A DNA stretch of 64,000 nt from Candidatus Staskawiczbacteria bacterium (GCA_041659225.1 JBAZYR010000005.1:4824-68823), one strand, 5' to 3'. Positions 23,520 through 41,246 are shown, counted from the stretch's first letter. The notes: generated from the letters alone by a model not told the origin. A program made the numbers and translations.

Positions 23520-23579
23520 ATATTTGTTGACTTCGCGTGGAGTCACGATAGTGTGTTCGTTGACATAGGAGTCTGTAAG

Positions 23580-24989
23580 ATGAAGCGAGGATGTTTTTAC
23601 TACGTATCGGCCTTCATTGTTGCTTTCGCCATCGTCGGTTCGGCGATGGCTCAGCAATCGACAAGCGCCCCTGCGGGCGCCGTGGCCAGCGATGGCAAAG
23701 TCGTTATCGCCGGTCAGCCGGGTGATTACAACATCATCTCGAGTGACGGTCAGTTAACGATGCAGAGTTACGAAGTAACCGGGGTGTCTGTGGAAAGTAA
23801 GAGCACGCTGTACAAAGCGTTCCATAAGCTCCTGTCGAAAGACGGGCGTGGCGGGAGTGCCGAGGTGGCGCCGCTCACTCGGAACGGTAAGGAAATCATT
23901 CTTCTCATCGTAGCCGCGACACCCGAGATGCAACGTTCAATCGCGAAAACCGTTGAGCGGATCAACTCGGGAACCGTCGGCGCTTTCTGCTACACCCCAA
24001 AAAATGTGGTGTTCATTCCGAAGTATCGGTCGGCCGAGTCAATCGCTGCGGCTTTACGCGTGGAGATAACCAACATTGGTGTTCTCTACGTTGACCCGAT
24101 TCTGAACGCGATAACGATCGAGGATGACGCCACCTACGTGGACTGGCTGGTCAATTACGCACAAGAGTTTGACTCGCCACCTCCGCAGATTACGGCCATA
24201 CTGCGTCTTGTCGCCATTGACAAGAACAATGACAGCAGTGTCGGAACGGATTGGGGTGCTCTGCTTGATGGACTTCCACCGTCGATTTCGCTAAGTATCG
24301 GCGGTGAACGTCAGATCTTATCGCGCTCGGGCGAAGTAAGCGTCGCCAACGGTGATCCGAGCCTTGCCCTGACAGGTTCGAAGCAAAGGCTTTCGCACCT
24401 GCCCATAACGAGTTTTTCTGCGGCGGTTAACGAGATTTCGCCGCAGGCGGTAGGAGCCTTCTTCAGTTATCTGGAAACAAAGGGCGTGTGTCGGATTCTC
24501 AACACCGCCGACATTAATGTGGTCAACGGCTCGCCGACGGTCGTAAGCACGGAAGTGAGTATGCCCGTCACCGCCACAGTCTCAAGCGAGACCGGCGGCA
24601 AGCTTCGCCAGGAAGTTTCGGTTTTAGAAGGTGTTAAGATTACGATCAGCGGAAGTTTGGCCACAATCGGCCATCGCCTGAATGTTCAGGCGAGCAGTAC
24701 ATCGGTGGTGAGTTATACTCGCACCGGCCTTCCGCTCATCGCGACGAGTACTCTTGACACCGCCGTCCAGCTGCCGCGCAACCGCACAATCACCTTATCG
24801 GGGTTGTCGCGGCAGAAGGAGGTCACGGTAACACACAAGCCTCCGGTACTCGGAGACTTGGATGTCTTGAACCTTTTCTCAAAAAAGGTCACCGAAACCA
24901 GGGAATGGAAACTGTATATTTGCATCACGGTGGTTGACCCGCCGGTTGCAACTCCAGCGACCACGAACCCTTCGGTTTCGGTCAATTGA
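23580..24989 (+). CDS. secretin family protein (GspD/PilQ/RcpA/pIV-like), orphan (GC-rich cassette B)
   Basis: ATG at 23580 has AGGAG 8 nt upstream. Signal peptide MKRGCFYYVSAFIVAFAIVGSAMAQQ. Secretin_N-like block (YRSAESIAAALRVE..LYVDPILNAITIEDD). C-terminal secretin blocks (RILNTADINVVNGSPTVV; GVKITISGSL; TITLSGL; PPVLGDLDVLNLFSKK..WKLYICITV). Confidence 0.7.
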   Translation: MKRGCFYYVSAFIVAFAIVGSAMAQQSTSAPAGAVASDGKVVIAGQPGDYNIISSDGQLTMQSYEVTGVSVESKSTLYKAFHKLLSKDGRGGSAEVAPLTRNGKEIILLIVAATPEMQRSIAKTVERINSGTVGAFCYTPKNVVFIPKYRSAESIAAALRVEITNIGVLYVDPILNAITIEDDATYVDWLVNYAQEFDSPPPQITAILRLVAIDKNNDSSVGTDWGALLDGLPPSISLSIGGERQILSRSGEVSVANGDPSLALTGSKQRLSHLPITSFSAAVNEISPQAVGAFFSYLETKGVCRILNTADINVVNGSPTVVSTEVSMPVTATVSSETGGKLRQEVSVLEGVKITISGSLATIGHRLNVQASSTSVVSYTRTGLPLIATSTLDTAVQLPRNRTITLSGLSRQKEVTVTHKPPVLGDLDVLNLFSKKVTETREWKLYICITVVDPPVATPATTNPSVSVN

Positions 24990-33566: not shown

Positions 33567-34028
33567 ATGGGACAAGCCATCCAATTCACAACTCCAAGCG
33601 ACCATTACGACTTTCGAAAAGAGAAGGGTTGTTGCATTCTTTGGTGCACAGATGCCCGATTCACTCCAGCTTTAGACAAGTTTGTGGCTGAACGCGGATA
33701 TATGCGCTACGATTTAATCCGTATCGCCGGTGGCGCGAACGTGTTGGCCACGCCCGAAGGAGACGGAGCAAGGTTTGTTATCGGTCAATTTGGCGCATTA
33801 CACAACCTTCACCATTTTGATAGCATCATACTAATGATGCATCAGGATTGCGGAGCCTGCGGCGGAAGCAAGGCATTCGGGGACGATTGCGCGCGGGAAT
33901 TACAGGATTTGAATTTACGACTATCCACCGCTTGCAAAGCCGTACGCGATAGCTTACCGTCAATCAAGGTGGAAACGGTTCTAGTGACCTTCAAGGAAAT
34001 CATATCAATTCCGCAACCTGTTCTCTAA
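33567..34028 (+). CDS. divergent beta-carbonic-anhydrase-like protein (CxDxR ... HxxC), cassette D
   Basis: C27-T-D29-A-R31 (ILWCTDARF), LIRIAGGANV (compare the beta-CA FVxRNAGN block), H92-Q-D-C95 (MMHQDCGACGG). The ATG lies 2 nt after the atpC stop, and its RBS GAGGAG is formed by the last atpC codons. Paralog of 39279-39848. Confidence 0.5.
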   Translation: MGQAIQFTTPSDHYDFRKEKGCCILWCTDARFTPALDKFVAERGYMRYDLIRIAGGANVLATPEGDGARFVIGQFGALHNLHHFDSIILMMHQDCGACGGSKAFGDDCARELQDLNLRLSTACKAVRDSLPSIKVETVLVTFKEIISIPQPVL

Positions 34029-34040
34029 AAGGAGGATCGG

Positions 34041-34304
34041 ATGAAGTTTACGACGAAGGCCGACTATTGGTATGGCAATCGACACGCGGTCGTTATTATC
34101 ACCATTGAAGGTAAGGGTGGAAAGGTTTTTATCACAACCGAATACGAAAAGAAAATCGAAGCAGAAATGATTTATAACAAGATACAGTTGAGATTCGAGG
34201 CGCCGGGTGCCCACGGTACTCGTATATACATAGTTTTTAATGACACACATCATCCCCCGGTACCGATTGCTCAGATGTACAAAGAGCTCCACGGAGAATC
34301 GTGA
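34041..34304 (+). CDS. small hypothetical protein, paralog 1 (cassette D)
   Basis: RBS AAGGAGG 5 nt upstream. Shares KF..(A)(D/E)Y.YG.NRA, G.FIT, L.FE...G.R and IA.M with the next ORF. Confidence 0.4.
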   Translation: MKFTTKADYWYGNRHAVVIITIEGKGGKVFITTEYEKKIEAEMIYNKIQLRFEAPGAHGTRIYIVFNDTHHPPVPIAQMYKELHGES

Positions 34305-34585
34305 TGAATGTGAAATTCAATGTCCAAGCGGAATACACTTACGGTGATAATAGGGCAATCACAGCTCAAATCATTATCGAAAGAACGCCAACTGGAATCT
34401 TCATAACCAACCTAGCTGAACTTCCTGTGAAAGTAACGATGCGTTTTGACGCTGTGCAATCCAAATTGATTTTTGAAGAAACTGCCGCGAATGGAAAGCG
34501 TGTTCACACGATTTCCGAAAAACATCTATCGCCTCACGAAATCGCTGATATGCATACAGCTCTTCTACTTGGCAAAACTCAATGA
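34301..34585 (+). CDS. small hypothetical protein, paralog 2 (cassette D)
   Basis: Start overlaps the upstream stop (GTGATGA context). Paralogous to 34041-34304. Confidence 0.4.
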   Translation: MMNVKFNVQAEYTYGDNRAITAQIIIERTPTGIFITNLAELPVKVTMRFDAVQSKLIFEETAANGKRVHTISEKHLSPHEIADMHTALLLGKTQ

Positions 34586-35790: not shown

Positions 35791-36003
35791 ATGTTTTTAG
35801 GAATTATATTTTTAGTAGTCGGTGTCGCCCTTTTATTGAATAGCTTCGGATTCCTTAACGTCAGCTTTTGGGGATTTTTCTGGGCAGCTCTGTTCATCAT
35901 TGTGGGAATAAAAATACTTATGGGCAAAGATCACTGTTGCCTCGTTGGCTCTCACATGAAAAAACACAAATGCTGCGGTGGAGATCACGACGACGCTGAA
36001 TAA
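35791..36003 (+). CDS. small two-TM protein with Cys/His-rich tail
   Basis: Two hydrophobic helices, then DHCCLVGSHMKKHKCCGGDHDDAE. Confidence 0.4.
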   Translation: MFLGIIFLVVGVALLLNSFGFLNVSFWGFFWAALFIIVGIKILMGKDHCCLVGSHMKKHKCCGGDHDDAE

Positions 36004-36032
36004 ATCCTGAGAGACTTTCGAAAGTCGCTTTA

Positions 36033-36056
36033 CGCTGTCGCGTTCAGCGATTTTTT
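36033..36056 (+). terminator. intrinsic terminator
   Basis: CGCTG-tcgcgtt-CAGCG followed by attttttg, preceded by the palindrome GACTTTCGAAAGTC (36013-36026). Confidence 0.6.
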
Positions 36057-36077
36057 GTTAATATATATAGCAATCTC

Positions 36078-36800
36078 TTGACAGGTTTTACAATCCATGC
36101 TATCGTATTACTATACTTTACGATTATGCCGAGGATAGAAATTGCTGACTTTCCAATGAACTACTCGGGATAAATTCACGATTAGTTCTTTGGATGGTTG
36201 GCAGGCTCGCTTTTAAAGGTGAGCTGTCCGCTATCCTACAGGCCGCGTCCGACAGTTGGTGGGCGAGCGAACATAGACTCGAGGGTTTCCAAAAAATTAG
36301 GGCAATGCTAGTTGAGTCGCCGACGGCTTTCCACGTCGACGTGATACTCTCGCGTTGTGGATCTTCGGTGCAACGGGTGCCGAAACCTAGGCAGCGGTCA
36401 AGGGCCTACCCGAAAATCTTGACTGGGAACCCACCCACCAACTGTCACTTGTTCATTGAAAACAAAAGTAGAAACAGAACTTCGCGCTATCGTTCGCGTG
36501 AACGAAAGACGAAGTTTTCTTACTGAGGAGTACACTTTATGCGCACCCTTCGCCACCCGGTCATGTTTGCGATTATCTTCTGTGCGCACCGCCGGCACCG
36601 CCACGGTCAGCCCTGACCACGTCGGCACGGGCCCGCTAGCGCCCGAATCAAGATAGTCCTATGGATGGGCTGATTCGGGTTCTGGCGAAAGACCCAAGAG
36701 GAGGAACACATATGTTCCCCAAGGACCCTCCGTTCTACTAAAGACAAACGAGGGCAGGAACGTCTCATGGCCGAGGACGCATTCCTGCCCCTCTTTTTTT
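36078..36800 (+). ncRNA. candidate large structured RNA or micro-ORF leader unit (promoter to terminator, no credible long ORF)
   Basis: Promoter TTGACA (36078), 17-nt spacer, TATCGT. Many local perfect hairpins: CACGTCGACGTG 36332-43; TTCGGTGC/GTGCCGAA 36364-84; AACTTCG[CGTTC-gcgt-GAACG]CGAAGTT 36478-516; CCCGAATCA/TGATTCGGG 36642-79; GGAACAcataTGTTCC 36703-18. Ends in a strong terminator GGGCAGGAACGTC...GACGcaTTCCTGCCC plus ctcttttttt (36752-36800). The only long ORF (36194-36526) lacks an RBS and is Arg/Ser-rich. Confidence 0.3.
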
Positions 36801-36812
36801 ACATAAATATCC

Positions 36813-36840
36813 TTGACAAATCTCAGTATTTTATTATAAT
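36813..36840 (+). promoter_or_regulatory. consensus sigma-70 promoter of the nfeD-flotillin operon
   Basis: TTGACA, 16-nt spacer, TATAAT. Gives a leader of about 130 nt containing the GGCAAG-cgga-CTTGCC hairpin and an SD-preceded ATG-AAA-TAA mini-ORF (36908-36916). Confidence 0.6.
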
Positions 36841-36973
36841 AAGCACACTAAAGGCAAGCGGACTTGCCCGAAGAGTTCGTTGACAAGTTGGAAGGAGAGT
36901 CGAACAAATGAAATAAAATTCGCATATCGTATCGGTTTGTAGACGCAGGCCATGAAACGAAAGGAGACAGGCC

Positions 36974-37504
36974 ATGTTGGTGTTCTTTACGGTTGCTTTG
37001 ATCGCATTTTTGTACGTGGTGCTGGGATTTATTCTCGGCCACGCCCATGACGTCGGCCATGACATTCTAAGTCATGACGCGGATCATGAGGGTGCCGATG
37101 GCCACATGATCAGTATTTTCTCGACGCGAGTAATCGCCACCTTTATGATGGCTTTTGGAGCTGCTGGAGGAGTTTTCAAGTTTTACAATTTCAACTATCC
37201 TCTTTCATGCCTTGGTGGCATCGGCGCCGGCATAGTCGTGTCTATTCCCATTTATTTCTTACTGAATTTCATCGCGAAACAACAATCGAATTCTTTAGTG
37301 TTGACATCCTCTTTAGTCGGACTTTCTGGAGTTACGGAAACGGCAATGGAGGGGAATATCATGGGCGAGGTTGCGGTGTTCGCGCTGGGCCGGCGTAACA
37401 TTTACCAAGCCGTCTCTCGCTTGGGTAAGCCCATCGCCAAAGGATCGGCCGTGCGCGTGGTGAGAACCATGGGAAGTGACTTGGTTGTGGAAGTTCTGGC
37501 CTGA
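36974..37504 (+). CDS. NfeD/YqiJ-like membrane protein
   Basis: RBS AAGGAG. N-terminal TM plus His/Asp-rich loop (HAHDVGHDILSHDADHEGADGH), more TM segments, and a C-terminal NfeD OB-fold-like GVTETAMEGNIMGEVAV...GSAVRVVRTMGSDLVVEV. Confidence 0.7.
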   Translation: MLVFFTVALIAFLYVVLGFILGHAHDVGHDILSHDADHEGADGHMISIFSTRVIATFMMAFGAAGGVFKFYNFNYPLSCLGGIGAGIVVSIPIYFLLNFIAKQQSNSLVLTSSLVGLSGVTETAMEGNIMGEVAVFALGRRNIYQAVSRLGKPIAKGSAVRVVRTMGSDLVVEVLA

Positions 37505-37542
37505 GTCGCGGAATCGCGACCGAAAGATAAGGAGAAGAGATT

Positions 37543-39210
37543 ATGATATCAGCGGTAGACATCGCTCACACATTGGGGCAGTATTTGATCCCCATACTCG
37601 TTATACTGTTCTTCATCGCCGTCATCATCATGCTACGCGTGATGGTGAGCCGCTACCAGAAGATCCCGCCCAATAAGGTGGCGATCATCTTCGGACGCGG
37701 CACCAAGGTTGGGGGTGAGGGACAGATCCAGGGATGCAAGGTCGTCAGCGGCGGAGGCGTATTCGTCTGGCCAGTGTTCCAGTCGATCGACTACATGGAC
37801 ACCGCGGCCTTCCGAATGGCCATCAACGAAACGGGCGTCCCCAACAAAGAGAACGTGGGGATTAACGTTGCGGGTGTGGCGGTCTGCAAGATATCCACCT
37901 CACCCGAGGATCTACAGAGCGCTGCGATGTCCTTTCTCGGCCAGTCGCAGGCCCAGATCCAGGAGACCATCTCCAGCGTCCTCATCGGCCATTTGCGTTC
38001 CATCATCGGTAAGCTGGACATCGACGGAATCCTTCGGGATCGCGATTCCTTCAACCGCATGGTGGTGAACGAGTCGAACCCCGAGTTGAAGCGCATGGGG
38101 ATCCAGATCGTCACCCTGGTCATTCAGGAAGTCAGTGATGAGCACGGCTACATCGCCGCGTTGGGTAAACGTGCGGTGGCCGAAGCCGTCAGGGATGCCG
38201 ATATCAAAGTCGCACAGGCGCAAGCAGCGACGAGAATGTCGGTCAGCCAAGCCCAGCGAGAAGCGTCGGTTGTCGAGGCTCAGAATGCCGTTGCGATTGC
38301 TGATGCGGAAAAGGACCGCGACATCAAACGCGCTACCTTCAAGGCCGCAGCCGACACGGAGTTGGCCTTGGCTAACCAAGCCCTGGCCATTGCCACCGCG
38401 GCACAGGAGCAAATCCTGCGCGTTGCTCAGGCGGATCGGGATACAGCCGCAGCCGACGCACAAACCAAGGTCCAGGAGGCCGAGGCAAAGCGCATGGAGC
38501 AACAGCTCCAGGCCACGGTGATCAAGCCGGCAGAGGCCGAAAAGTCAGCGGCTATCATCAAGGCCGAAGGGCTGAAGCAGGCTGCGATCCTCGAAGCCGA
38601 GGCACAGGGTCAAGTCGTGATTTGCAAAGCCGAAGGCGATGCAACTGCGGCGAAGAAACTGGGTGAAGGTATGGCAGCGCAAACGCTGGCCACTCTCACT
38701 GCCAAGGCTCAGGGCGAAGCCGCCGTGACGGAGCAAGCCTTACTGGCAAAGGCCAAGGGCGAAGCCGCTCAGAAAGGCCTCGTTCTCACAGCCGAAGCCG
38801 AGGGCACGAAAAAGCTGGCGGACGCGCTGGCTCAGATGACCGAATCAGCCCGGCTGATTCTGATTTTGGACCGGTTGCCGATACTGATGGATCGGGGCGG
38901 CGAAGCAGCCTCAAAGGTTGCACAAGCCGTATTTTCCAGCGTTGCGGCACCGTTCGGCCAGATCGACAGCCTGCGGATCGTCGACATGGGCGGTAACGGC
39001 AAAGCGCTCGAAGGGTTAGGCGATATTGTGCCCAACACCGTCTTCAAGTTCCTCGCCGGCATGCAAGCCCGCGGGATCGACATCAAGAAGGTTCTCGCCA
39101 AGCTCGGCATCGACGCCGACGAGATCACCAGTATGCTGAACGAGCTGGGATCGACCATTCGACCGGTCGTGGCAGCCGGAGATCTCGTGTCGGACTCCGA
39201 TCCGGCATAA
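37543..39210 (+). CDS. flotillin/YqiK-like SPFH (band-7) domain protein
   Basis: RBS AAGGAG. N-terminal TM, SPFH domain (YQKIPPNKVAIIFGRG...), and a long Ala/Glu/Gln-rich coiled-coil flotillin region (AQAQAATRMSVSQAQREASVVEAQNA...). Confidence 0.85.
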   Translation: MISAVDIAHTLGQYLIPILVILFFIAVIIMLRVMVSRYQKIPPNKVAIIFGRGTKVGGEGQIQGCKVVSGGGVFVWPVFQSIDYMDTAAFRMAINETGVPNKENVGINVAGVAVCKISTSPEDLQSAAMSFLGQSQAQIQETISSVLIGHLRSIIGKLDIDGILRDRDSFNRMVVNESNPELKRMGIQIVTLVIQEVSDEHGYIAALGKRAVAEAVRDADIKVAQAQAATRMSVSQAQREASVVEAQNAVAIADAEKDRDIKRATFKAAADTELALANQALAIATAAQEQILRVAQADRDTAAADAQTKVQEAEAKRMEQQLQATVIKPAEAEKSAAIIKAEGLKQAAILEAEAQGQVVICKAEGDATAAKKLGEGMAAQTLATLTAKAQGEAAVTEQALLAKAKGEAAQKGLVLTAEAEGTKKLADALAQMTESARLILILDRLPILMDRGGEAASKVAQAVFSSVAAPFGQIDSLRIVDMGGNGKALEGLGDIVPNTVFKFLAGMQARGIDIKKVLAKLGIDADEITSMLNELGSTIRPVVAAGDLVSDSDPA

Positions 39211-39278
39211 GCTGAGTTGGGGAGGCGAGGAGACAATCTTCTCGCCTCCCTCTCTCGGTATAAAGAAGGAGAGATGGC

Positions 39279-39848
39279 ATGCAAAAAGCCCGCGAACAAG
39301 TATCACCACCACTAGTGGTTGTGAGTGAACCGCCGAAAACCGGTGGCGGCGAGGCCTTAACGCCCGGAGCCGCCCAGTTCTATTCCGCGGTTGTCAACCC
39401 ACAGCCAACCGCCGTGGTTATTCATTGCAGCGATCCAAGATTTCAAACCGCTTTCCGCGAATTCATTGAAACGGAATTAGGCCTGTCCGATGGACAGTAT
39501 ATTCCTTTCGTGATCGCGGGAGGAGCTGGAGTGTTGAGCCGACCTGAGGCCCTGCCGAAGGAATTCCGCTTCATGCGGGAGCGCCTGGAACTCTTCCGAG
39601 AGCACTTCAAATCGATAAGGCGGGTAATCCTGATCAACCATGAGGACTGCGCATACTATCATAGTTTGTGCGAAAAAAGCTGGGCTCTCCGAACTCTCGC
39701 GCACCTTTTGCCGCGGGATGACATGAAGCTCATCGCTCAGGTTTTTCATCGCTTGCTGTCCCACCTTGGGATGCAAGTGGAACTCTATCACGCAAAGTTC
39801 TCCGATGACGAACGCACGCGAATCGTGTTTGAGCGAATAGAGCAATAG
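39279..39848 (+). CDS. divergent beta-carbonic-anhydrase-like protein (CxDxR ... HxDC), paralog of 33567-34028
   Basis: RBS GAAGGAG. Motifs VVIHCSDPRF, FVIAGGAGVL, LINHEDCAYY, with the same order and spacing as the cassette D protein. Confidence 0.5.
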   Translation: MQKAREQVSPPLVVVSEPPKTGGGEALTPGAAQFYSAVVNPQPTAVVIHCSDPRFQTAFREFIETELGLSDGQYIPFVIAGGAGVLSRPEALPKEFRFMRERLELFREHFKSIRRVILINHEDCAYYHSLCEKSWALRTLAHLLPRDDMKLIAQVFHRLLSHLGMQVELYHAKFSDDERTRIVFERIEQ

Positions 39849-39907
39849 AAATAACTTTCAAACCCCAAAGGACTCTAACCTGCGGGGTCTTCTTTTATAC
39901 CAAATCA

Positions 39908-39937
39908 TTGACACATATTCTGAGAGGGGGATATAAT
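39908..39937 (+). promoter_or_regulatory. consensus sigma-70 promoter of an ORF-poor unit
   Basis: TTGACA, 18-nt spacer, TATAAT. Confidence 0.5.
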
Positions 39938-40018
39938 ATAATAATTGTTGCGCTATTTGCTTCGCAATGTGCGAGCAAAGCGCTCCGAAGGTCGCTCGTT
40001 TACAAGGAGTACGGTGTC

Positions 40019-40117
40019 ATGTGCAAGATCGTTTTGTTTCGCGGGATTTGCAGTGGCCAGAGTGCGGACAAGATCATCGTCAGCACGACGGTCGTGGCGG
40101 CGCCGCTCCTAGCCTAG
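40019..40117 (+). CDS. candidate micro-ORF a (32 aa)
   Basis: ACAAGGAG, 9 nt, then ATG. Encodes MCKIVLFRGICSGQSADKIIVSTTVVAAPLLA. No homology recognisable. Confidence 0.25.
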   Translation: MCKIVLFRGICSGQSADKIIVSTTVVAAPLLA

Positions 40118-40231
40118 TTGGGACATGGGAGCAGACCAGTCGTCTGTAGGCAACGCGCACACATTCAAAACTGGCATCGCTAAGTTGCGAGGCCACCCGA
40201 GTGGAAGACCACACACAAGGAGAACCTGACA

Positions 40232-40378
40232 ATGACCAACACAAAGTGGCCGACTGGCCACGGGACGACCAACAGCAAATGCTCACGGCGCAAGAAGAAC
40301 CTGGCGGGGCATAACTCCAGAAGCAAGGGGCACGCCGCCGCCCATCACATTCACGCACATAGCCAGCACACAGGCTGA
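40232..40378 (+). CDS. candidate micro-ORF b (48 aa, basic, His-rich)
   Basis: ACAAGGAG, 9 nt, then ATG, the same RBS context as micro-ORF a. Encodes MTNTKWPTGHGTTNSKCSRRKKNLAGHNSRSKGHAAAHHIHAHSQHTG. Too short for the ORF track. Confidence 0.3.
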   Translation: MTNTKWPTGHGTTNSKCSRRKKNLAGHNSRSKGHAAAHHIHAHSQHTG

Positions 40379-40428
40379 TGACAAGGCCTAGCCTGGTGAG
40401 GGCGCACAGAGGCGCCGTATAGGCGCAG

Positions 40429-40472
40429 GGGAGCAGGTAAGCTATAAAGGGCTTTCCTCGCTCCCTTTTTTT
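40429..40472 (+). terminator. intrinsic terminator of the 39.9-40.5 kb unit
   Basis: GGGAGCAGG, 22-nt loop, CCTcGCTCCC, followed by ttttttt. Confidence 0.65.
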
Positions 40473-40482
40473 ATTTGTTCTC

Positions 40483-40509
40483 TTATCACTCTTGACAAGA
40501 GAGTGATAT
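40483..40509 (+). promoter_or_regulatory. CIRCE-like HrcA operator overlapping the hrcA promoter
   Basis: TTATCACTC-N9-GAGTGATAT versus the CIRCE consensus TTAGCACTC-N9-GAGTGCTAA. The 9-nt spacer contains TTGACA, which sits 17 nt upstream of TATCAT. Confidence 0.7.
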
Positions 40510-40529
40510 TTTCTTATCATACAAATATC

Positions 40530-41246
40530 ATGGATTCCTTAACTAAAAGACAAGAGAAAATTCTGGAGGCTTTAATTAACGAATACGTTAAGACAGCCGA
40601 ACCTGTAAGTTCAAAACTCTTGGCAAAGAAGAGGGAATTTGATATATGCCCGGCAACCATCAGGAACGAACTGCAGGAGCTAACGGACAAAGGATATATT
40701 TATCAGCCCCATACGTCAGCGGGCAGGGCACCGACAACAAAGGCCTACCGGTTTTTTGTCGATAGGGTTTTTAATATCGAGCATGATTTATCCTTCGAAA
40801 CCTTTTTTGATATGTTCAATGAAATTGAAGAACGGACCCGCGACGAGTTTAAATATATCGAGGAAGTATCAAAGAACCTTGCTTCTGAAACCTCGAATCT
40901 CATCCTAACTTATCTTGAAGGCCGGGATTTTGTACTTAAGGAAGGTTGGGAAGATATTCTGCAGAACCCGGAATTTTTAGAAAAGTCATTCTTAGATAAA
41001 TTTATTCAAGAGGTTGAGTATCTGGAGAAGAATATTAAAAAGATAGCTGCAGAAAGCAATTCGGAGATAAACGTATACATCGGCAACGAAAACCCAATTA
41101 TGAAATCGGACGGATTCAGTTTGATTGTCACAAAAGGAGTGTTCCCGAACAATGAAAAAGGGGTAGTGGTGATGCTCGGGCCTTCGCGAACAGGATACGA
41201 ACGGAATATTTCACTTTTAAAATCATTAATTAAATCTTTGGAATAA
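40530..41246 (+). CDS. hrcA: heat-inducible transcription repressor HrcA (short form)
   Basis: LTKRQEKILEALINEYVKTAEPVSSKLL winged-helix N-terminus. Position upstream of grpE-dnaK-dnaJ. The ATG at 40530 lies downstream of the operator. Confidence 0.8.
   Translation: MDSLTKRQEKILEALINEYVKTAEPVSSKLLAKKREFDICPATIRNELQELTDKGYIYQPHTSAGRAPTTKAYRFFVDRVFNIEHDLSFETFFDMFNEIEERTRDEFKYIEEVSKNLASETSNLILTYLEGRDFVLKEGWEDILQNPEFLEKSFLDKFIQEVEYLEKNIKKIAAESNSEINVYIGNENPIMKSDGFSLIVTKGVFPNNEKGVVVMLGPSRTGYERNISLLKSLIKSLE

What the first reader, a model, noticed from the sequence alone, without database searches (positions are those of the whole stretch)
36078..36800. About 720-nt promoter-to-terminator unit without a convincing ORF: candidate large structured RNA
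The unit runs from TTGACA-17-TATCGT at 36078-36106 to a very strong terminator (13-bp interrupted stem plus T7, 36752-36800). Within it I can fold at least six perfect local helices by eye, including a nested one (AACTTCG[CGTTC..GAACG]CGAAGTT) and a 9-bp helix CCCGAATCA/TGATTCGGG. The only long ORF (36194-36526) has no RBS although every real gene in this island has AGGAG. It is also Arg/Ser/Lys-rich in its second half. Two tiny SD-preceded ORFs exist (GAGGAG-8-ATG giving MRTLRHPVMFAIIFCAHRRHRHGQP at 36538, and GAGGAGG-7-ATG giving MFPKDPPFY at 36711). The unit could therefore be a large ncRNA, a dual-function RNA, or a leader-peptide array. I could not match it to RNase P, tmRNA, SRP, 6S, or group I/II intron signatures.
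Basis: seen in the sequence. Interest (0 to 1): 0.6.

Follow-up and report, generated by a model that had tools for sequence, protein, structure and literature searches.

The report
Orphan ORF-less transcript beside flotillin island
A roughly 690-base stretch with its own promoter and terminator, no believable protein gene and a lot of predicted RNA folding lies at the edge of a foreign, GC-rich gene island in a Candidatus Staskawiczbacteria genome. Nothing like it was found anywhere else, so whether it is a working RNA cannot yet be shown.

Summary
A TTGACA-17-TATCGT promoter (36078-36106) and a strong terminator (36750-36800) bracket about 690 nt in which no reading frame looks coding. ORF110 (36194-36526) fails every test I ran:
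- it has no Shine-Dalgarno (SD) sequence and its ATG is buried in a -29 kcal/mol hairpin;
- its codon score is negative;
- it has no homolog among 1.84 billion protein representatives, and no Pfam hit in any of six frames.

No Rfam family matches, even at E<=10.

The structure is more than chance. A perfect 13-bp long-range helix has P=0.002. A 5' three-way junction scores z=-6.0 on the + strand and -3.6 on the - strand. The whole-unit z-score is not diagnostic, however, because GC-rich true genes in this window (secretin, flotillin) score the same.

The unit lies on the left edge of a GC-rich NfeD-flotillin island that was probably acquired horizontally. A second ORF-poor promoter-to-terminator unit (39908-40472) lies on the right edge.

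No homolog turned up in phage, plasmid, viral or JGI metagenome collections, or next to NfeD relatives. Other assemblies of the organism are 100% identical. Covariation therefore cannot be tested.

Best reading: an orphan, island-borne, independently transcribed RNA that may carry micro-ORFs (confidence 0.45). Main rival: inert foreign remnant DNA (0.33). Interest is modest.

The parts
36033..36055 (+). Intrinsic terminator of the upstream LiaF-TM-like 70-aa gene (35791-36003). It marks the left boundary of the unit.
   Evidence: stem CGCTG..CAGCG followed by a T-run; Pfam LiaF-TM hit for the gene.
36078..36106 (+). Sigma-70-type promoter TTGACA-17-TATCGT with a TGn extended -10. The predicted transcription start is near 36113.
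   Evidence: In one search, about 15 of the 19 other + strand sites with at least 10 of 12 matches lie just upstream of gene starts, so this promoter type is predictive in this genome.
36113..36800 (+). Predicted primary transcript of about 690 nt, 52% GC against 43% for the window.
   Evidence: The transcript is inferred from the promoter and terminator only; no expression data were available.
36128..36243 (+). 5' three-way-junction domain. It consists of closing stem P1, a long imperfect hairpin (36143-36203) and a second hairpin (36204-36225).
   Evidence: -51.8 kcal/mol, z=-6.0, MFE equals the centroid; the reverse strand gives only -36.8 kcal/mol, z=-3.6; 6 G.U pairs on the + strand and 0 on the - strand.
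36194..36526 (+). ORF110, the only long ORF. Judged not to be a gene.
   Evidence: No SD sequence. The ATG lies in the 3' arm of the 36143-36203 hairpin. Codon log-odds are -0.07 (native model) and -0.16 (island model), against +0.10 to +0.74 for real genes. No Pfam hit. No hit among 1.84 billion representatives.
36251..36446 (+). Multi-helix core of about 200 nt, closed by a perfect 13-bp helix GACAGTTGGTGGG/CCCACCAACTGTC.
   Evidence: I2; P=0.002; z=-4.1. No target-site duplication flanks it (read).
36479..36517 (+). Nested hairpin: a 7-bp outer helix, an internal loop and a 5-6-bp inner helix.
36525..36616 (+). GAGGAG SD sequence (36525-36530) followed by a 25-aa micro-ORF MRTLRHPVMFAIIFCAHRRHRHGQP (36539-36616).
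   Evidence: The codon score is negative. Translation was not tested.
36634..36687 (+). Hairpin with a perfect 9-10-bp helix CCCGAATCA/TGATTCGGG.
   Evidence: I1.
36698..36741 (+). GAGGAGG SD sequence (36698-36704) followed by a 9-aa micro-ORF MFPKDPPFY (36712-36741). Its stop codon lies 8 nt before the terminator stem.
36750..36800 (+). Strong intrinsic terminator: an interrupted stem of about 14 bp followed by seven U.
   Evidence: (-23.4 kcal/mol).
36813..36840 (+). Perfect TTGACA-16-TATAAT promoter of the downstream NfeD-flotillin operon. It shows that the unit is not simply that operon's leader.
   Evidence: 12 of 12 matches; NfeD and Band_7 Pfam hits.

Best explanation
The region is an independent transcription unit. 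It would make an RNA of about 690 nt that encodes no conventional protein. It lies at the left edge of a recently acquired GC-rich island (about 36150-40470) carrying NfeD, flotillin and a 189-aa gene, in a Candidatus Staskawiczbacteria (CPR) genome.

The product most likely acts as RNA. It has three predicted modules:
- a well-defined, strand-specific 5' three-way junction;
- a core of about 200 nt closed by a 13-bp helix;
- a 3' part with hairpins and two SD-led micro-ORFs (25 aa and 9 aa), ending in a strong terminator.

Shown here: the promoter and terminator motifs, the absence of coding signal, helices that exceed chance, strand asymmetry of the 5' domain, and the island context.

Inferred: that the unit is transcribed as a single molecule, that the fold is under selection, and any function.

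The most plausible role is a lineage-specific regulatory RNA or a dual-function RNA (small peptide plus RNA) that travels with the island. No target or partner could be identified.
For: - Promoter and terminator bracket the unit. This promoter type precedes real genes elsewhere in the window.
- No coding signal in any of six frames.
- No Pfam hit in six frames.
- Nothing among 5.8 billion proteins for the six-frame concatenation.
- Nothing among 1.84 billion representatives for ORF110.
- The ORF110 start codon is buried in a stable hairpin.
- 5' domain: z=-6.0 on + against -3.6 on -, with G.U pairs only on +.
- The 13-bp long-range helix has P=0.002.
- The SD-ATG pairs lie in the 3' third of the unit. 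This does not fit one decayed gene filling the cassette.
- A second unit of the same design lies on the other island edge.
Against: - No homolog was found anywhere, so there is no conservation or covariation. Searches.
- Independent assemblies are 100% identical, which gives no variation to analyse.
- The whole-unit folding z-score is matched by GC-rich true coding regions in the window.
- The high GC content is explained by island membership.
- The middle part (36526-36630) folds better on the - strand.
- No expression data are available.
Confidence: 0.45

Rival explanations
1. Inert foreign remnant. The GC-rich body is non-functional DNA that arrived with the NfeD-flotillin island, or is the wreck of island genes. 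The terminator and promoter are leftovers or insulators, and the predicted folding is a by-product of GC-rich foreign sequence.
For: - The unit lies exactly on the island edge, and its GC matches the island rather than the host.
- A second ORF-poor GC-rich block lies on the other edge.
- GC-rich coding DNA in this window gives equally extreme folding z-scores.
- No relative was found in any collection searched.
- The closest NfeD relatives are only 59% identical or less and come from other phyla. Their upstream regions show no similarity.
Against: - A recent pseudogene should keep some frame-specific codon signal or protein similarity. None is seen in six frames.
- Both ORF-poor blocks have their own near-consensus promoter and strong terminator.
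- The 5' domain is strand-specific and well defined.
- The 13-bp helix is improbable by chance.
- CPR genomes are compact, and the other large gaps in this window hold small genes.
Confidence: 0.33
2. Small-protein mRNA. The unit is chiefly a messenger with a long structured 5' UTR for one or two micro-proteins, the 25-aa MRTLRHPVMFAIIFCAHRRHRHGQP and/or the 9-aa MFPKDPPFY. The 9-aa ORF ends 8 nt before the terminator stem, so its translation could also modulate read-through into the NfeD-flotillin operon.
For: - Strong SD-ATG pairs occur 5 times in about 1.5 kb of island non-coding DNA (36539, 36712, 36908, 40019, 40232). The background is about 0.3 per kb elsewhere, island coding DNA included. 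My Poisson estimate is about 1e-4, made post hoc.
- All three island genes use AGGAG, whereas only 15 of 60 genes in the window have any SD sequence.
- The SD sequence of the 25-aa ORF lies in a small hairpin loop in the predicted fold.
Against: - Codon scores of both micro-ORFs are zero or negative.
- The peptides have no recognisable features. The hydrophobic run of the 25-aa peptide is only about 10 residues, too short for a membrane helix (read).
- No homologs were found.
- A perfect promoter lies between the terminator and NfeD, so an attenuator is not needed to express the operon.
- No antiterminator alternative structure was identified.
Confidence: 0.17
3. ORF110 (36194-36526) is a real, lineage-specific 110-aa protein gene.
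For: It is the longest open frame in the unit. Its first half has a weakly positive codon score of +0.12 to +0.13.
Against: - No SD sequence, and the ATG is buried in a -29 kcal/mol hairpin.
- The overall codon score is negative, and the second half scores -0.27 to -0.43.
- GC by codon position is 0.48/0.50/0.58, unlike real genes, where position 2 is lowest.
- No Pfam hit.
- No hit among 1.84 billion representatives or 5.8 billion clusters.
- The Logan gene caller called nothing here.
- By my estimate, an open frame of this length is not rare by chance at 53% GC.
Confidence: 0.03

Closest known systems
Large 'ornate' bacterial ncRNAs (OLE, GOLLD, ROOL, HEARO, raiA)
   Same: Size of about 600-800 nt, no ORF, many predicted helices, and GC-rich relative to the host genome. 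Like OLE RNA, which forms a membrane-localised ribonucleoprotein (PMC12265935), it lies next to membrane-protein genes.
   Different: No match to any of their Rfam models, even at E<=10. Those classes are defined by wide conservation and covariation, whereas this unit has no detectable relative.
Dual-function regulatory RNAs such as Staphylococcus aureus RNAIII (514 nt, encoding the 26-aa delta-hemolysin). This comparison rests on my own knowledge.
   Same: A long, multi-hairpin stand-alone transcript carrying an SD-led micro-ORF of about 25 aa and ending in a terminator hairpin.
   Different: No sequence relation. No target complementarity stands out: RNAduplex against 61 translation-initiation regions did not single out NfeD. 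Translation of the micro-ORF is untested.
Leader-peptide transcription attenuators (trp and pyrBI type). This comparison rests on my own knowledge.
   Same: A 9-aa SD-led ORF stops 8 nt before a strong terminator that precedes an operon.
   Different: The regulated operon has its own perfect promoter after the terminator. No alternative antiterminator pairing was found. The leader would be unusually long, at 690 nt.
Non-coding remnants at the borders of horizontally acquired genomic islands
   Same: Position on the island edge, island-like GC, a twin block on the other edge, and no homologs.
   Different: Remnants do not normally carry their own near-consensus promoter and strong terminator, a strand-specific folded domain, and no trace of former coding sequence.

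Membership tests
Rfam large ncRNAs (OLE RF01071, GOLLD, ROOL, HEARO, raiA) | Score at or above the family covariance model's gathering threshold | tested here: not met
   No hit at gathering score. At E<=10 the only hits were two chance-level matches, SNORD15 at 12 bits and drz-agam-2-2 at 10 bits.
Housekeeping RNAs (RNase P, tmRNA, SRP, 6S) | Match to the Rfam model; for tmRNA, also ARAGORN detection of the tRNA-like domain and tag | tested here: not met
   Only tRNA-Lys and tRNA-Ala were found in the window.
Group I / group II introns | Match to the catalytic-core models (P7/P3 for group I, domain V for group II) | tested here: not met
   none at E<=10.
Protein-coding gene (ORF110) | An accessible start with or without an SD sequence, in-frame codon bias, and homologs | tested here: not met
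Pseudogene of a known protein family | Residual protein similarity in shifting frames | tested here: not met
   six frames, no hit; no frame-specific codon signal. Sensitivity to short, diverged fragments is limited.
Stand-alone bacterial RNA gene (generic) | Its own promoter and an intrinsic terminator bracketing an ORF-less body | tested here: met
   This rests on motifs only.
Stand-alone bacterial RNA gene (generic) | A discrete transcript observed | not testable with these tools
   No expression data were available.
Structured ncRNA class | Conservation with compensatory base changes across homologs | not testable with these tools
   No homolog was retrieved. The other assemblies are identical.
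MITE or IS remnant (for the 13-bp inverted repeat) | Terminal inverted repeats flanked by a target-site duplication, in multiple copies | tested here: not met
   The inverted repeat is present. The flanks GCGTCC and ACTTGT share no duplication. There is no second copy in the 64 kb. The rest of the genome could not be searched.
Leader-peptide attenuator | Leader ORF coupled to mutually exclusive terminator and antiterminator structures, with the regulated gene depending on read-through | tested here: inconclusive
   The 9-aa ORF ends 8 nt before the terminator. However, a 12-of-12 promoter follows the terminator and no antiterminator was seen.
Type I toxin mRNA | A small peptide with a hydrophobic transmembrane helix of about 18 residues or more | tested here: not met
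   The 25-aa peptide has only about 10 consecutive hydrophobic residues.
Replication origin | A cluster of DnaA boxes and a GC-skew switch | tested here: not met
   no DnaA box within the unit; cumulative skew rises monotonically.

The most novel reading that the evidence does not exclude
Unit 1 is the founding member of a new class of large structured RNA, about 690 nt. It is carried on a mobile NfeD-flotillin (membrane-microdomain) island in CPR bacteria and functionally tied to those membrane proteins. That would loosely parallel the membrane-associated OLE ribonucleoprotein.
Probability: 0.1. Interest if true: 0.7.

Novelty: new member of a known kind. Interest (0 to 1): 0.3.

Why it matters
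If the unit is a functional RNA, it would be one of very few large non-coding RNAs proposed for the Candidate Phyla Radiation. These bacteria have tiny genomes and leave little room for non-functional DNA. It would also link an RNA to a flotillin/NfeD membrane module.

At present it is a single-genome orphan. Its value is as a concrete, cheaply testable candidate: map metatranscriptome reads and run nhmmer over full CPR genomes. It also carries a caution. In this genome, GC-rich horizontally acquired coding DNA gives the same folding z-scores as the candidate RNA. GC content and z-score alone would therefore over-call RNA genes here.

Tried and rejected
- **Rfam.** Gathering thresholds over the whole window and E<=10 over 35950-37000 gave nothing.
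- **blastn (word size 11)** against phage and plasmid collections gave nothing.
- **Six-frame translation,** concatenated and searched against 5.8 billion proteins, gave nothing at E<=10. Six frames against Pfam gave nothing.
- **ORF110** against 1.84 billion representatives gave nothing.
- **Synteny through NfeD relatives.** Loci L002-L006 and L010-L012 show no similarity upstream of NfeD.
- **Synteny through HrcA in GTDB genomes.** Only one relative was found (42% identity), without the element.
- **Pseudo-protein trick.** I back-translated pieces of the element's reading frames so that the search for related loci scanned for six degenerate 24-nt patterns per run. Two metagenome scans used 10 element patterns plus 2 native-protein patterns. 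Two viral scans reused the element patterns. All were empty, and the organism itself is not in the JGI set.
- **Concatenated flanking proteins** (217-aa, FKBP, LiaF-like, 189-aa), meant to find close relatives. The output was swamped by multi-domain FKBP proteins and was useless.
- **Exact look-ups** of NfeD, FKBP and AtpE to find strain variants. Only identical contigs of the same organism came back.
- **Trans-target idea.** The terminator loop CAUGGCC is complementary to GGCCAUG in the NfeD 5' UTR (I4). RNAduplex ranked NfeD only 7th of 61 translation-initiation regions, so I dropped it.
- **Other readings rejected:** MITE (no target-site duplication, single copy), replication origin (no DnaA boxes) and type I toxin (peptide not hydrophobic enough).
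- **Whole-unit folding z-score** as evidence for an RNA gene. Rejected as non-specific after the coding controls.
- **Literature search** for large RNAs specific to CPR. None were described.

Full report
**1. What is there**

The window comes from a Candidatus Staskawiczbacteria (CPR/Patescibacteria) metagenome-assembled genome. The NfeD protein at 36974-37504 is identical to MFA5878265.1, on a 785-kb contig.

Between the 70-aa LiaF-TM-like gene (35791-36003, Pfam hit) and NfeD lies a 970-nt gap. Read, with the scans, the gap contains in order:
- a small terminator for the upstream gene (36033-36055);
- a TTGACA-17-TATCGT promoter with a TGn extension (36078-36106);
- about 640 nt of 52-53% GC sequence;
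- a strong interrupted-stem terminator followed by seven U (36750-36800; -23.4 kcal/mol);
- a perfect TTGACA-16-TATAAT promoter (36813-36840);
- the NfeD 5' UTR.

The two micro-ORF start codons are at 36539 and 36712, one base later than stated.

**2. It is not a protein gene**

ORF110 (36194-36526) fails each test:
- It has no SD sequence.
- Its ATG lies in the 3' arm of a -29 kcal/mol hairpin.
- Its in-frame against out-of-frame codon log-odds are -0.07 (model from native genes) and -0.16 (model from island genes). Real genes score +0.10 to +0.74. The second half of ORF110 scores -0.27 to -0.43.
- A sliding six-frame scan finds no coding signal anywhere in 36000-36950. The signal switches on sharply at the NfeD start.
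- ORF110 has no Pfam hit, and none of the six frames does either.
- The six-frame concatenation has no hit among 5.8 billion protein clusters at E<=10.
- ORF110 has no hit among 1.84 billion cluster representatives read in full by HMMER.
- The Logan gene caller called no gene here.

These results also argue against a recent pseudogene. Short, diverged fragments would escape these searches, so that reading is not fully excluded.

**3. It is not a known RNA**

Rfam 15 gives only the two tRNAs at gathering thresholds. At E<=10 on the 1-kb region it gives two chance-level hits of 10-12 bits. ARAGORN finds no tmRNA. A literature search found no described large RNA specific to CPR bacteria.

**4. 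Is the structure more than chance?**

Partly.
- The full unit folds with z=-5.1. Without the terminator it gives z=-6.6.
- I then ran thirty 640-nt control windows. AT-rich native coding DNA gives z between -3.1 and +2.2.
- GC-rich true genes are as extreme as the candidate. The secretin gene gives -6.6 and -4.7, flotillin gives -4.5, and window 39179-39818 gives -5.7.
- The global z-score therefore does not discriminate in this genome.

Two features do stand out.

*The 5' domain (36128-36243).* It is a three-way junction with z=-6.0. Its MFE structure equals the centroid and holds 7% of the ensemble. The reverse strand reaches only -36.8 against -51.8 kcal/mol, with z=-3.6. All six G.U pairs are on the + strand. 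This fits selection at the RNA level on the + strand.

*The perfect 13-bp helix (36251-36263 / 36434-36446).* It closes a multi-helix core of about 200 nt. A helix this long occurs in 2 of 1000 dinucleotide shuffles. Only one other 13-bp inverted repeat exists in the 64 kb. It has no flanking target-site duplication and no second copy in the window, so a MITE is unlikely.

The middle segment 36526-36630 folds better on the - strand. Not all of the unit looks like a + strand RNA.

**5. Context: a foreign island with twin ORF-poor flanks**

GC rises from about 0.40 to 0.50-0.62 between about 36150 and 40470.
- The NfeD protein's closest relatives are only 59% identical or less and come from Verrucomicrobia, Planctomycetota and unassigned metagenome contigs.
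- The three island genes all use AGGAG SD sequences, whereas only 15 of 60 genes in the window have any SD sequence.
- The right border is native. The hrcA upstream region carries a CIRCE-like inverted repeat (40483-40509), and it is the only stretch similar to the Patescibacteria relative L007.

Between the 189-aa gene and hrcA lies a second unit of the same design. It has TTGACA-18-TATAAT at 39908, about 500 nt of GC-rich, A-rich sequence, and a strong terminator at 40428-40472. It has no Rfam hit, only moderate folding (z=-2.0 to -3.5), and a spurious-looking minus-strand ORF.

The candidate's GC-richness is thus explained by island membership. It is not independent evidence for an RNA gene.

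Both ORF-poor blocks are nevertheless neatly bracketed by an AT-rich near-consensus promoter and a terminator. This promoter type is predictive in this genome. About 15 of the 19 other + strand sites with at least 10 of 12 matches lie just upstream of gene starts. I therefore consider transcription likely.

**6. SD-ATG enrichment**

Strong SD sequences (AGGAG, GGAGG or GAGGA) followed by ATG after 4-10 nt occur five times in about 1.5 kb of island non-coding DNA: at 36539, 36712, 36908, 40019 and 40232. The rate elsewhere is about 0.3 per kb, and island coding DNA shows the same background. My post hoc Poisson estimate is about 1e-4.

This keeps the micro-ORF or dual-function reading alive. 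The 9-aa ORF MFPKDPPFY stops 8 nt before the terminator stem, so translation could in principle affect termination. Against that, the operon has its own perfect promoter, and I found no antiterminator structure. The peptides themselves are unremarkable and have non-positive codon scores.

**7. Search for relatives**

Every search was negative:
- blastn against phages and plasmids;
- upstream regions of eight NfeD-relative loci;
- one HrcA-anchored Patescibacteria locus;
- scans with six degenerate 24-nt patterns per run, derived from the element. Two runs covered JGI metagenome contigs and two covered IMG/VR.

These pattern scans detect only fairly close relatives, and the JGI set does not contain the organism itself. 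The negatives therefore show that no close relative is present there. They do not show that none exists.

Independent assemblies from two sequencing runs (SRR6484324 and SRR18595301) are 100% identical over 13-15 kb. This rules out an assembly artefact. It also leaves no variation to analyse, so covariation could not be tested.

**8. Verdict**

The unit is real and non-coding for any conventional protein. It is probably transcribed, and it contains at least two structural features beyond chance.

Whether it is a functional large RNA, a micro-ORF messenger or inert island DNA cannot be settled here. My estimates are:
- orphan island-borne RNA, possibly dual-function: 0.45;
- inert remnant: 0.33;
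- chiefly a small-protein mRNA or attenuator: 0.17;
- real ORF110 protein: 0.03.

It belongs to no known RNA family. As a kind, a stand-alone orphan non-coding transcript on a genomic island is familiar. Interest is modest at 0.3, because nothing beyond a single genome supports function. The most novel reading still open is a new large structured RNA class tied to a flotillin/NfeD island in CPR bacteria, at about 0.1 probability.

Noticed in passing
window 39908-40472: A second ORF-poor unit running from promoter to terminator lies on the right edge of the island. It has TTGACA-18-TATAAT at 39908, about 500 nt of GC-rich (0.53-0.60), strongly A-over-T-skewed sequence, and a terminator at 40428-40472. 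It carries two SD-led small ORFs (34 aa from 40019, 49 aa His-rich from 40232). It has no Rfam hit and folds only moderately (z -2.0 to -3.5). The 146-aa minus-strand gene that Logan called here (40080-40520) looks spurious: it is Cys/Arg/Ser-rich and its codon score is -0.18 (native model) and -0.41 (island model).
   Followed up: partly
window 36150-40470: The NfeD-flotillin-189-aa block is a GC-rich island (0.50-0.62 against 0.43). Its genes all use AGGAG SD sequences, whereas only 15 of 60 genes in the window have any SD sequence. The closest NfeD relatives are 59% identical or less and come from other phyla. Horizontal acquisition is likely.
   Followed up: partly
window 40483-40509: A CIRCE-like inverted repeat, TTATCACTC-N9-GAGTGATAT, overlaps the -35 of the hrcA promoter (40492). 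It is the only stretch conserved with the Patescibacteria relative L007 (9926-9957). The true HrcA start is probably the ATG at 40530, as called in L001, not the GTG at 40503.
   Followed up: partly
window 36893-36916: A minimal 'start-stop'-like ORF, AGGAG-N10-ATG AAA TAA (Met-Lys-stop), lies in the NfeD 5' UTR, downstream of the perfect promoter.
   Followed up: no
window 23553-24989: A GC-rich (0.54-0.56) secretin gene (Pfam Secretin and Secretin_N) has an extreme folding z-score (-4.7 and -6.6) although it is coding. It may be another foreign gene, and it is a useful warning against reading z-scores as RNA evidence here.
   Followed up: partly
window 33567-34028 and 39279-39848: Two distant paralogs of the Pro_CA_2 (putative carbonic anhydrase) family share 35% identity over 81 aa. 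One is native, just after the atp operon. The other is GC-rich and lies inside the island.
   Followed up: partly
window 36997-37060 (NfeD N-terminus), 35920-36000 (LiaF-like C-terminus), 36575-36616, 40330-40380: There is a recurring His/Cys/Asp-rich theme. NfeD has HAHDVGHDILSHDADHEGADGH. The LiaF-like protein ends in DHCCLVGSHMKKHKCCGGDHDD. The micro-ORFs end in HRRHRHGQP and HAAAHHIHAHSQHTG. This may point to metal binding, or it may be coincidence.
   Followed up: no
window 39220-39250: A near-perfect 14-bp hairpin, GGGAGGCGAGGAGA/TCTTCTCGCCTCCC, lies between flotillin and the 189-aa gene. It has no clear T-run and may be an intra-operon processing or attenuation site.
   Followed up: no
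window 34041-34304 and 34301-34585: Two adjacent small ORFs of 87 and 94 aa, both preceded by SD sequences and neither with a Pfam hit, look like tandem paralogs (for example TAEYTYG against TKADYWYG).
   Followed up: no
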